Source: Laetmonice hystrix | Lineage: Eukaryota | Reading direction: 5' to 3' | Assembly: GCA_965235115.1 (NCBI GenBank) | Contig: OZ249447.1 | Location: 7,750,001 to 7,814,000 of the forward strand | DNA: 64,000 nt | Shown: positions 1-3,000 of the stretch, in pieces | Layout: each line of letters opens with the position of its first letter | Numbering within the stretch: position 1 is the stretch's first letter | Position numbers: made by a program

Positions 1-3000
1 ATGATCTGCAGTCATCCAGTATATTGACCCAGGTGTTGATGTGTTATATGACCCGCCAGTTACACCTACCATGATCTGCAGTCATCCATTGACCTAGGTG
101 TTGATCTGTTATATGACCCGCCAGTTACACCTACCATGATCTGCAGTCATCCAGTATATTGACCCAGGTGTTGATGTGTTATATGACCCGCCAGTTACAC
201 CTACCATGATCTGCAGTCATCCATTGACCTAGGTGTTGATCTGTTATATGACCCGCCAGTTACACCTACCATGATCTGCAGTCATCCATTGCCCCAGGTG
301 TTGATCAGTTACACCTACCATGATCTGCAGTCATCCAGTATATTGCCCTGCAAGCCGAGACAACCACCTTCGGGTCGTCCATATGCATCAACAGGGCTCC
401 AAAACACGTGTTATGTAGTGGGTCTCTACGGGAAATGTACATAATATACCGTCAGTACAAAAATGTTGGTTAATGGCAAATCTTTACGACACCTGATTAA
501 AAGTCATGCCTATCGTCTTTCATTAATGTCATTACACAAATTATTGTCCATGACCATATTAGCAAAGATCCAGCGAGAGTATTATTGTGTTGATATCCCA
601 GTTAATAACATTGAGTATATTTACTGAAGGAGCTGGGGGTCATCACCGATGTTGTACTGAAGGTACGGGCTGAGTTCTAACAGCTTGGCCAGAGCTCGAC
701 AACATGCTTCCTGGAACAAAAACAAATATAGTGAAATCAAAGCTCATCGAGTCAGTCAGGAATACCAACGCATCCCATCAAATTATACCCATCATTTAAA
801 CAGTATGAAATCTTGATTAAACCACCACAGAATGGCATGTTTGTCCTGATGGGACTCCGTACCTGAACATGCGCATCATCTCGATGACGGCTCATTGCCA
901 AGATAAAGAATATCTGCTTCAACCCATGTTTGTCCTGATGGGACTCCGTACCTGAACATGCGCATCATCTCGATGGCGGCTCATTGCCAAGATTAAGAAT
1001 ATCTGCTTCAACCCATGTTTGTCCTGATGGGACTCCGTACCTGAACATGCGCATCATCTCGATGACGGCTCATTGCCAAGATAAAGAATATCTGCTTCAA
1101 CCCATGTTTGTCCTGATGGAACTCCGTACCTGAACATGCGCATCATCTCGATGACGGCTCATTGCCAAGATAAAGAATATCTGCTTCAACCCATGTTTGT
1201 CCTGATGGGACTCCGTACCTGAACATGCGCATCATCTCGATGACGGCTCATTGCCAAGATAAAGAATATCTGCTTCAACCCATGTTTGTCCTGATGGGAC
1301 TCCGTACCTGAACATGCGCGTCATCTCGATGACGGCTCATTGATTTGAATATCTGCTTCAACCAGTTGATTTCATCGTCTTGTGTCTCTCCACTTCCACT
1401 CTGCCACATCTCCACTGACAATAATAACGTAACAGTCCACAAATATCTCATCAAGTACCCGTCTGCATTATTATTAATTTTTTATATCTCATACGACATG
1501 CGTGTATTTCCAATATTGCTAGCGCAGAATATACCTGTTTTATAGAATAAGTTGAATCCATGAGTCTGAATACGACGGTTCTCCATGAAGTTACGGACAG
1601 CGGTGAAGAGATTCTGTACGAAACTTGAGATGGACGTTCTCCTGAAAACGTTATCTAGAACACACAAAGGTCAGGTTTGGATGAGTCCTTCCAAGAAGTC
1701 ATCCCAAGGATTCTGTACCAAACTTGAGATGGACGTTCTCCTGAAAACGTTATCTAGAACACACAAAGGTCAGGTTTGGATGAGTCCTTCCAAGAAGTCA
1801 TCCCAAGGATTCTGTACGAAACTTGAGATGGACGTTCTCCTGAAAACGTTATCTAGAACACACAAAGGTCAGGTTTGGATGAGTCCTTCCAAGAAGTCAT
1901 CTCAAGGATTCTGTACGAAACTTGAGATGGACGTTCTCCTGAAAACGTTATCTAGAACACACAAAGGTCAGGTTTGACTGGGTCCTTCCAAGAAGTCATC
2001 TCAAGGATTCTGTACGAGGAGAGAAGGATCTGACCTTCTGAGACGAGGAGAGAAAGGTTCTGACCTTCTAACACAAGGAGAGAAAGGCTCTGACCTTCTA
2101 ACACGAGGGGAGAAAGGCTCTGACCTTCTGAGACGAGGGGAGAAAGGCTCTGACCTTCTAACACGAGGGGAGAAAGGCTCTGACCTTCTAACACGAGGAG
2201 AGAAAGGACGGTGAGGGTTGTCTCCAGGATTTCCTCGTCCTCCACAAACTGACCGATGACACGTTCCATAACGGCAGGCAGCTCCTCTCCAACCAATCTC
2301 GCCTCACCATCTTCTAACAGCAAATACACTCCACATTTTGGGTTCTTCAAAATCATCACCATTAACATCAGTTTTCAAATCCAGGATAAACATCAATAAA
2401 GTCTTGATGCCAACCCTTCAAATAAGGTTGATATGCCCGTTTTGTGTGATGGCTGTATCCGAGAAGTTGTAATGGTAGCCTTATAATTTACTTATAATAT
2501 GGTATGGCCATATTCTGACAATAATTTACTTAGGTAAAGCCATACCATATTCTGACAATACGTGCAGCAGTCGACAAGCCTCCAGTGTGACCACCCTGTT
2601 GTTGTTATGGTTACCAAGGGCAGCAGAAAACAAGTGAATATCATTGCTGCCAAGTAATTCCGCTCGTAGATCTGGCTCTGCATCATAATCAAAACAAAAT
2701 ATATGTTAATAATACACTTGAAGGTGAGGATGATGACGACAAACTCGACAACGTAAGTCAAAACGCTATGAGTGAGTAATGAAATGTAAGATTATCACAT
2801 AATATTTGTATTGTATATCGTGTAATTAATTGCCAACCATCTTGGATCAGACTGGTCAGAGTTCGACAGCCATCAGCTTGTGCCTCAGCATGATCAGGGA
2901 AGGCGGCCAAGGCTCGCGTTATGGGGCCAAGCGCCTCGCTGTACTTATACTGGAGTTTTCCTCGCCCTCCTGATGGCCCTTAAACAATTTTAAAAGGTAG

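What the first reader, a model, noticed from the sequence alone, without database searches (positions are those of the whole stretch)
2016..2207. Six in-frame alternative 5' splice donors spaced 30 nt apart in LRRK2
Seen: the 30-bp array duplicates the exon end GAAG|gtcaga six times (last exonic bases 2185, 2155, 2125, 2095, 2065, 2035). The frame stays open through all copies (ORF 1952..2368: LVLE GQSLSPLVLE GQSLSPLVSE..). Using any downstream donor adds whole 10-aa units into the ARM solenoid without a frameshift. Inference: a built-in dial for ARM-domain length, or a tolerated decoy set that survives precisely because it keeps frame. The vertebrate LRRK2 ARM region binds Rab GTPases (established), so insertions could matter functionally.
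Basis: partly seen in the sequence, partly recalled or inferred. Interest (0 to 1): 0.65.

Follow-up and report, generated by a model that had tools for sequence, protein, structure and literature searches.

The report
Minisatellite copies of a splice donor
The six evenly spaced splice donors are real, but they are one of several tandem duplications of exon-intron boundaries in this gene, a structure already described in lancelets as "mirages" and reported there not to disturb normal splicing.

Summary
A 30-nt tandem array (2014-2207, 6.5 copies) repeats the last 23 nt of a minus-strand exon plus 7 nt of intron. This gives six identical GAAG|GTCAGA sites at exactly the stated coordinates, and the frame stays open.

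It is not a special device. The same gene part carries four more boundary duplications:
- a 99-nt array over the next exon's acceptor (4 copies);
- an 89-nt array over a donor (6 copies);
- a roughly 65-nt array over a donor (5 or more copies);
- a degenerate 37-nt duplicate over a donor.

Only the 30-nt unit keeps frame (1 of 5). Frame-keeping therefore does not explain why such arrays survive. The intron after the six donors (530 nt) consists entirely of two arrays fused at a TCGT microhomology.

Tandem duplications of exon-intron boundaries are known in amphioxus as "mirages" and are reported not to disturb splicing. In human F7, only the most upstream of identical tandem donors is used.

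Best reading: a neutral mirage, with 2185 as the working donor. The LRRK2 label is only weakly supported (1 of 7 exon-level searches, E=1.5). No RNA data could be consulted.

The parts
2014..2207 (-). The 30-nt tandem array (6.5 copies). Each unit is the last 23 nt of exon B plus the first 7 nt of the intron, and each carries GAAG|GTCAGA.
   Evidence: The units occur nowhere else in the window.
2178..2207 (-). First (authentic) unit: the end of exon B and the donor, with the last exonic base at 2185.
   Evidence: It is contiguous with the unique exon body upstream.
2028..2177 (-). Five further full units with pseudo-donors. The G before GT lies at 2155, 2125, 2095, 2065 and 2035.
1998..2027 (-). 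Hybrid unit where the 30-nt and 99-nt arrays meet. It holds 14 nt of exon-B-type sequence, then the last 8 nt of the exon-C-type part of the 99-nt unit, joined at the shared TCGT (2014-2017).
   Evidence: The TRF arrays overlap at exactly 2014-2017.
2185..2313 (-). Exon B. The 3' end is at 2185. The 5' end is unresolved: 2313, 2310 or 2328 are compatible in phase with the previous exon, and 2344 needs another donor.
   Evidence: ORF 1952-2374 and a reading. This is an inferred model with no cDNA support.
1655..2184 (-). The 530-nt intron between exons B and C, built entirely from the two arrays. By hand count, 272 nt are exon-derived copies and 258 nt are intron-derived.
   Evidence: Hand count.
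1610..2017 (-). The 99-nt tandem array (4.1 copies, 98% matches) over the acceptor of exon C. Each unit is 54 nt of intron 3' end plus 45 nt of exon 5' end. First exon-type bases lie at 1951, 1852, 1753 and 1654, and each unit carries an in-frame TGA.
1535..1654 (-). Exon C (120 nt, phase 1 at both ends).
1308..1462 (-). Exon D (155 nt). It is the only exon with a match, and a weak one, to human LRRK2 (residues 336-368).
836..1342 (-). The 89-nt tandem array (5.7 copies, 98% matches) over the donor of exon D. TTCAG|GTACGG occurs six times, with last exonic bases at 1308, 1219, 1130, 1041, 952 and 863. The authentic copy differs from the other five by a 6-nt indel.
625..710 (-). Exon E (86 nt). 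No duplication at either of its junctions.
319..425 (-). Exon F (107 nt).
1..311 (-). The 65/135-nt tandem array over the donor of exon F. ATCATG|GTAGGT lies at 319, 270, 205, 135 and 70. The array is cut by the start of the window.
2483..2560 (-). A degenerate two-copy duplication (spacing 37/38 nt) of the end of exon A2 and its donor (last exonic base 2546). The second copy has GC in place of GT. A 13-nt inverted repeat overlaps the donor.
2546..2677 (-). Exon A2 (132 nt).
   Evidence: Phase is consistent with exon A, whose donor has its last exonic base at 2838.

Best explanation
The six donors come from a "mirage", a minisatellite-like tandem duplication of an exon-intron boundary. A 30-nt segment (23 nt of exon end plus 7 nt of intron) was duplicated and amplified by the slippage or unequal exchange that produces minisatellites throughout this genome.

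The copy attached to the exon body (donor at 2185) is the working splice site. The five downstream copies lie in the intron and are removed with it, so the mRNA is unchanged and the array is selectively neutral. The same logic holds for the neighbouring acceptor array, where the last copy (1654) is the working site.

Shown: the repeat anatomy, its coordinates, the sibling arrays and their frames. Inferred: the exon model, which donor is used, neutrality, and that the host is a cephalochordate.
For: (1) Anatomy. There are six identical 10-mers at 30-nt spacing, and the unit is 23 nt of exon plus 7 nt of intron. The units are local only, with no other copy in the 64 kb.

(2) The same gene part holds four more boundary duplications: a 99-nt acceptor array x4, an 89-nt donor array x6, a ~65-nt donor array x5 or more, and a 37-nt donor duplicate. 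In total, 5 of 14 junctions between exon A and exon F are duplicated.

(3) Internal control. In 4 of these 5, use of an inner copy would break the frame or meet a stop, or the copy has lost its GT. For the gene to encode a protein, the outermost copy must be the one used, and the same rule gives 2185 here.

(4) The window is 19% minisatellite (12,130 of 64,000 bases in 19 arrays), so the mutational process is pervasive.

(5) Variable columns among the six units: 5 of 30, of which 3 are non-synonymous and 2 synonymous in the gene frame (classified by hand). This shows no sign of purifying selection on the copies.

(6) Literature.
- Tandem repeats spanning exon-intron boundaries ("mirages") are described in amphioxus Adh3, globin, TnC and PGBD5 genes, on both 5' and 3' boundaries, with units of 10-160 bp. 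They are reported not to interfere with regular splicing and to vary in copy number between haplotypes (PMC3087553 abstract and section 16 passages; PMC3902484 passage).
- In human F7, a 37-bp VNTR whose first unit spans the exon 7 donor gives 5-9 identical donors. Only the most upstream is used, even though some downstream ones would keep the frame (PMC1557585 abstract and Discussion).
Against: No transcript data could be consulted, so which donor is used is inferred.

The 30-nt unit is the one case where inner donors would give in-frame, stop-free products that would not be expected to trigger nonsense-mediated decay. Low-level use would therefore not be purged in the same way.

The 10-mer GAAGGTCAGA is invariant in all six copies while 5 other columns vary, although the chance of that is about 0.1 (hand calculation).

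The F7 Discussion itself notes that earlier duplication experiments from different groups gave opposite results on which duplicate is chosen.

The host organism is unverified, because no eukaryotic genome collection was available. The exon model rests on ORFs, GT-AG signals and consistent phases only. Copy number in an assembly may be wrong; Ebner et al. say one globin mirage was mis-assembled in the draft genome.
Confidence: 0.8

Rival explanations
1. Noisy minor use. The upstream donor dominates, but downstream donors are used in a few percent of transcripts. This would give in-frame isoforms, not expected to trigger nonsense-mediated decay, with 10-50 extra residues and no selected function.
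For: All six donor 10-mers are identical. The frame is open through the array. An RNA fold shows no structure that would hide the inner donors: MFE -72.4 against a shuffle mean of -78.5, z = +1.3. [quoted passage not shown]
Against: In F7, the identical downstream sites are not used "even at low efficiency" unless they are raised to a perfect consensus. Reported mirages give no aberrant mRNAs.
Confidence: 0.2
2. Regulated choice among the six donors tunes the length of the helical-repeat domain in 10-residue steps.
For: Only the in-frame, open property of the unit.
Against: The sibling arrays of the same gene do not keep frame (4 of 5). The copies differ mostly by non-synonymous changes. Each unit carries Gly and Pro and is far shorter than a helical repeat. 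The array belongs to a window-wide minisatellite load. The F7 and mirage precedents also argue against it.
Confidence: 0.04
3. The array is coding. The true exon runs through the repeats and a downstream donor (for example 2035) is the working one, so the protein carries a tandem 10-residue repeat.
For: An open frame through all the units.
Against: By analogy, the first donor must be the working one in the 89-nt and ~65-nt arrays. There is no constraint on the amino-acid sequence of the copies. The single-sequence fold of the read-through ORF gave no confident structure over the units (pLDDT 25-33), which is uninformative rather than contrary.
Confidence: 0.04
4. Assembly artefact. The array, or its copy number, is produced by mis-assembly of a repetitive or heterozygous region.
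For: Ebner et al. report that the draft-genome version of one globin mirage was aberrantly assembled, and that copy number differs between haplotypes. An N run elsewhere in the window shows the assembly has gaps or masked parts.
Against: The copies differ from one another in a patterned way. The array joins its neighbour at a defined microhomology. Four other arrays of the same kind lie in the same gene. Re-sequencing supported such repeats in PGBD5.
Confidence: 0.1

Closest known systems
Amphioxus "mirages": minisatellite-like tandem duplications of exon-intron boundaries. Named for Adh3 by Canestro et al. 2002 (paper not held). Also reported in globin BflGb6 and BflGb9, TnC and PGBD5.
   Same: These are head-to-tail arrays whose unit contains the end of an exon, the adjacent intron and the splice signal. 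They occur on both 5' and 3' boundaries, with unit sizes of 10-160 bp (30-99 nt here) and several arrays in one gene. The edge copy differs from the homogenised inner copies, as in the 89-nt array here.
   Different: The host species is not verified here, and splicing and haplotype variation are untested. In this locus two mirages, one donor-side and one acceptor-side, have fused and make up a whole intron. I did not see that described in the passages I read.
The human F7 intron 7 VNTR of 37 bp (Borensztajn et al. 2006, PMC1557585).
   Same: The first monomer spans the exon-intron junction. The authentic donor is followed by several sequence-identical pseudo-donors at a fixed short spacing, and some pseudo-sites would keep the frame.
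   Different: It comes from a different gene and lineage. The exclusive use of the most upstream site was shown experimentally there. Here it is only inferred.
Intron birth by tandem duplication of an exonic AGGT (the Rogers model; Hellsten et al. 2011, PMC3265369).
   Same: A short intragenic tandem duplication supplies splice signals and leaves the protein unchanged (passages).
   Different: Here the donor and acceptor of the intron come from two unrelated units (30 nt and 99 nt), not from two copies of one exonic segment. The array enlarges an existing intron and does not create one.
Short-range tandem alternative splice sites (NAGNAG acceptors, GYNGYN donors). This comparison is recalled and comes from no call.
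   Same: Repeated splice motifs whose alternative use changes the protein in frame.
   Different: Those sites lie 3-12 nt apart and both forms are seen in mRNA. Here the spacing is 30 nt, the sites arise from a minisatellite, and their use is unproven.

Membership tests
Mirage (tandem duplication of an exon-intron boundary, amphioxus) | A head-to-tail minisatellite-size array. | tested here: met
   Period 30, 6.5 copies, 92% matches. The sibling arrays have periods of 99, 89 and 65 nt.
Mirage (tandem duplication of an exon-intron boundary, amphioxus) | The unit contains the exon end, the adjacent intron and the splice signal. | tested here: met
   The unit is 23 nt of exon plus 7 nt of intron with GAAG|GT. 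This depends on an inferred exon model whose phases chain consistently from exon A to exon F.
Mirage (tandem duplication of an exon-intron boundary, amphioxus) | Regular splicing uses the authentic copy, with no aberrant mRNA. | not testable with these tools
   No transcript data. There is indirect support from the out-of-frame sibling arrays.
Mirage (tandem duplication of an exon-intron boundary, amphioxus) | Copy number unstable or polymorphic between haplotypes. | not testable with these tools
   Only one sequence of the locus is available.
Mirage (tandem duplication of an exon-intron boundary, amphioxus) | The host is a cephalochordate. | not testable with these tools
   No eukaryotic genome collection was available. 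The only pointers are the 19% minisatellite load and the mirage architecture.
F7-type donor-spanning VNTR | The first monomer spans the junction and is followed by identical pseudo-donors. | tested here: met
   Six identical GAAGGTCAGA sites.
F7-type donor-spanning VNTR | Only the most upstream donor is used. | not testable with these tools
   No RNA data.
LRRK2 (ROCO kinase), N-terminal armadillo region | Sequence similarity of the exons to the LRRK2 armadillo domain. | tested here: inconclusive
   One of 7 exon-level PDB searches returned LRRK2 (exon D against residues 336-368, E = 1.5, 12.6 bits). The other six did not. Pfam gave nothing above its cut-offs on 7 ORFs, and the Atlas gave no usable hit.
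LRRK2 (ROCO kinase), N-terminal armadillo region | ANK-LRR-Roc-COR-kinase-WD40 architecture downstream. | not testable with these tools
   The gene runs off the window at position 1.
Intron gain by duplication of an exonic AGGT | Both splice sites of the intron derive from the two copies of one duplicated exonic segment. | tested here: not met
   The donor comes from the 30-nt unit and the acceptor from the unrelated 99-nt unit.
Short-range tandem alternative splice sites (NAGNAG/GYNGYN) | Sites a few nucleotides apart (3-12). | tested here: not met
   The spacing is 30 nt.

The most novel reading that the evidence does not exclude
Splice junctions may themselves be preferred seeding points for minisatellites in this genome, rather than merely places where they are tolerated.

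All five tandem duplications found in this gene part straddle a junction and none lies inside an intron. The joint probability under random placement, with exon-internal events removed, is 0.04. Four arrays sit in 2.2 kb where 0.54 are expected from the rest of the window (P = 0.002). Both figures are post hoc. Two arrays have already replaced a whole intron, 51% of which is now exon-derived sequence.

If true, boundary duplication would be a directed route of intron growth and turnover. As a corollary, the one in-frame array could give a helical-repeat domain whose length varies with an unstable repeat number.
Probability: 0.12. Interest if true: 0.6.

Novelty: new member of a known kind. Interest (0 to 1): 0.25.

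Why it matters
For the gene itself it matters little. The array most likely leaves the mRNA unchanged, so there is no reason yet to think the protein's N-terminal repeat region varies in length.

It matters in practice for annotation. Gene predictors and spliced aligners can choose any of 6 donors and 4 acceptors here, and 20 of the 24 combinations would be wrong or give insert-bearing models.

As a specimen it is a compact natural experiment on splice-site choice, with identical sites in series on both sides of one short intron. It is also a clear snapshot of an intron rebuilt from duplicated boundary sequence.

Tried and rejected
Gene identity.
- Pfam on seven exon-bearing ORFs gave only sub-threshold chance hits.
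- Seven exon-by-exon PDB searches gave one marginal LRRK2 match. The others gave nothing or designed repeat proteins.
- The ESM Atlas on exon D gave no usable hit.

Structure. An AlphaFold2 single-sequence fold of the contiguous read-through ORF (1955-2344, 130 aa) gave mean pLDDT 35.1 and pTM 0.34. The model is uninformative and was not searched further.

RNA structure that might mark the first donor. MFE was -72.4 kcal/mol against a shuffle mean of -78.5, z = +1.3, with 187 of 200 shuffles folding at least as well. Nothing stands out.

Are the other arrays of the window also splice-junction copies?
- A crude consensus-match score showed no enrichment over random segments for the 15 arrays outside the gene. 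It also failed to single out the four known junction arrays, so it has little power.
- Stop-free stretches flanking 13 of these arrays looked random.
- The question is left open.

Other checks.
- Dispersed-repeat origin of the units was rejected, because each unit occurs only in its own array.
- Array periods that are multiples of 3: 8 of 19, P = 0.28, so no excess.
- Rfam and tRNA scans of the window returned nothing.
- One search was a translation started in the wrong frame and was not used.
- Canestro et al. 2002 is not held, so it is cited only through Ebner et al.

Not done.
- Genome contigs holds only bacteria and archaea and was not used.

Full report
**Observation.** The region was read on both strands. 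Tandem Repeats Finder gives a period-30 array at 2014-2207 with 6.5 copies, 92% matches and score 311. On the minus strand the 10-mer GAAGGTCAGA occurs six times in the whole window. All six are in this array, with the G before GT at 2185, 2155, 2125, 2095, 2065 and 2035. The minus-strand frame is open from 2374 to 1952 and reads the units as GQSLSPLVLE and variants.

On the minus strand the ORFs, GT-AG signals and phases chain consistently:
- exon A ends at 2838;
- exon A2 is 2677-2546;
- exon B ends at 2185 (its 5' end is unresolved: 2313, 2310 or 2328);
- exon C is 1654-1535;
- exon D is 1462-1308;
- exon E is 710-625;
- exon F is 425-319.

After exon F the gene leaves the window.

Evidence for the name LRRK2 is thin. 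Pfam finds nothing above its cut-offs in seven exon-bearing ORFs. Of seven exon-level PDB searches, only exon D returns LRRK2 (residues 336-368, E = 1.5, 12.6 bits), ranked behind a designed repeat protein. The other six return no LRRK2, and the ESM Atlas gave no usable hit. A paper reports three amphioxus homologues in the LRRK1/LRRK2 clades (PMC9573974, passages), so such a gene is plausible there. Here the label remains a lead only.

I do not take the contig for human. The single LRRK2 alignment is distant, and the window is 19% minisatellite. The 166 N near 40.8 kb were left alone.

**Anatomy.** The 30-nt unit is the last 23 nt of exon B plus the first 7 nt of the intron. Its neighbour is a 99-nt array (1610-2017, 4.1 copies, 98% matches). 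That unit is the last 54 nt of the intron plus the first 45 nt of exon C, so the acceptor occurs four times.

The two arrays meet at 2014-2017 in a hybrid unit. There, exon-B-type sequence passes into the tail of the exon-C-type sequence at a shared TCGT. This is the footprint expected of a microhomology-mediated deletion between the arrays (inference).

The 530-nt intron (2184-1655) therefore contains no unique sequence at all. By hand count, 272 nt are copies of exon ends and 258 nt are copies of the 7-nt and 54-nt intron ends.

Further downstream in the gene:
- an 89-nt array repeats the donor of exon D six times (1308 to 863);
- a ~65-nt array repeats the donor of exon F at least five times (319 to 70, cut by the window edge);
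- a degenerate 37-nt duplicate covers the donor of exon A2, and its second copy reads GC where the first has GT.

No duplication was found in 312-835 or 1343-1609. In all, 5 of the 14 junctions between exon A and exon F are tandemly duplicated: 4 donors and 1 acceptor. Each unit is confined to its own array within the 64 kb.

**Testing the interpretation.** Within this gene that is 1 case in 5.
- The 89-nt period and the 49/65/70/65-nt spacings are not multiples of 3, and read-through meets stops before the second donor (ORFs ending at 1275 and 305).
- Every 99-nt unit has an in-frame TGA.
- The 37-nt copy has no GT.

These arrays persist although their inner copies would wreck the reading frame. 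For the gene to encode a protein, the copy attached to the exon body must be the one used. The same rule makes 2185 the working donor.

Among the six 30-nt units, 5 of 30 columns vary, 3 of them non-synonymous and 2 synonymous in the gene frame (classified by hand). That is the pattern expected without constraint, although power is low. The donor 10-mer is invariant, but the chance of that is about 0.1 (hand calculation).

RNA folding shows nothing that distinguishes the first donor (z = +1.3). A single-sequence AlphaFold2 model of the contiguous read-through ORF was too poor to use (pLDDT 35.1).

**What is known.** Ebner et al. [quoted passage not shown] They credit the term to Canestro et al. 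2002 for Adh3 (units of 10-72 bp; that paper is not held). They also state that:
- RT-PCR shows regular splicing is not disturbed;
- copy number differs between haplotypes;
- one such array was mis-assembled in the draft genome.

The PGBD5 paper (PMC3902484, passage) adds 60- and 108-bp repeats over splice sites. It says the Adh and TnC mirages generate no aberrant mRNAs.

Borensztajn et al. 2006 (PMC1557585; abstract and whole Discussion) show that in human F7, where a 37-bp VNTR starts on the exon 7 donor, only the most upstream of 5-9 identical donors is used. That holds although the others are functional and two of them would keep the frame.

The intron-birth model by duplication of an exonic AGGT (PMC3265369, passages) does not fit here, because donor and acceptor come from unrelated units.

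Five literature searches listed no paper on such arrays in an LRRK2-like gene and no genome-wide survey of mirages. The library is partial, so this does not show that none exists.

**Chance and context.** The window holds 19 arrays covering 12,130 of 64,000 bases. I collapsed the gene to 1,747 nt and placed units at random, excluding exon-internal placements.
- The chance that a unit spans one junction is 0.33 (30 nt), 0.40 (37 nt), 0.61 (65 nt), 0.71 (89 nt) and 0.75 (99 nt).
- The joint chance for all five is 0.04.
- Four arrays in 2.2 kb against 0.54 expected gives P = 0.002.

Both figures are post hoc, since the locus was picked because it looks like this. They hint at, but do not establish, a preference for junctions. 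For the other 15 arrays I could not tell whether they touch exons.

**Verdict.** The feature is real and is best explained as a mirage: a neutral by-product of minisatellite turnover at an exon boundary, with the 2185 donor doing the work (confidence 0.8). It is a new instance of a known kind.

Three things stay open: minor use of the in-frame inner donors, the true copy number, and the species and orthology of the gene. All need RNA data, long reads or eukaryotic sequence collections that were not available here.

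Noticed in passing
window 1655-2184 (-): A whole 530-nt intron consists only of two boundary arrays (30-nt donor-side and 99-nt acceptor-side) fused at a TCGT microhomology at 2014-2017. About half of it (272 nt by hand count) is copied exon sequence.
   Followed up: yes
window 836-1342 (-): The 89-nt array repeats the donor of exon D six times. The authentic first copy differs from the five near-identical inner copies by a 6-nt indel and one substitution, as expected if the array edge is excluded from homogenisation.
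   Followed up: partly
window 2483-2560 (-): A degenerate two-copy 37/38-nt duplication covers the donor of exon A2. The second copy has GC instead of GT. A perfect 13-nt inverted repeat (2496-2508 / 2539-2551) overlaps the authentic donor and could pair with it in the pre-mRNA.
   Followed up: partly
window 2028-2207 (-): Each 30-nt unit also carries a strong acceptor-like pyrimidine tract ending in TTAG, 3 nt before the donor. Its score is reached by 2.9% of random segments. Any role is unknown.
   Followed up: no
whole window: The window holds 19 minisatellite arrays (periods 15-99 nt, up to 50 copies) covering 19% of the 64 kb. Arrays with periods divisible by 3 create long mechanical ORFs, for example 32310-33359, 41460-42770 and 43205-44338.
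   Followed up: partly
window 6831-7910 (-) and 52123-53139 (-): There are two long ORFs with clear Pfam domains: SEFIR (E = 7.9e-25) and Sulfotransfer_2 (E = 3.5e-53). These are neighbouring genes unrelated to the finding.
   Followed up: partly
window, near 40.8 kb: A run of 166 N (assembly gap or masked stretch), left untouched.
   Followed up: no
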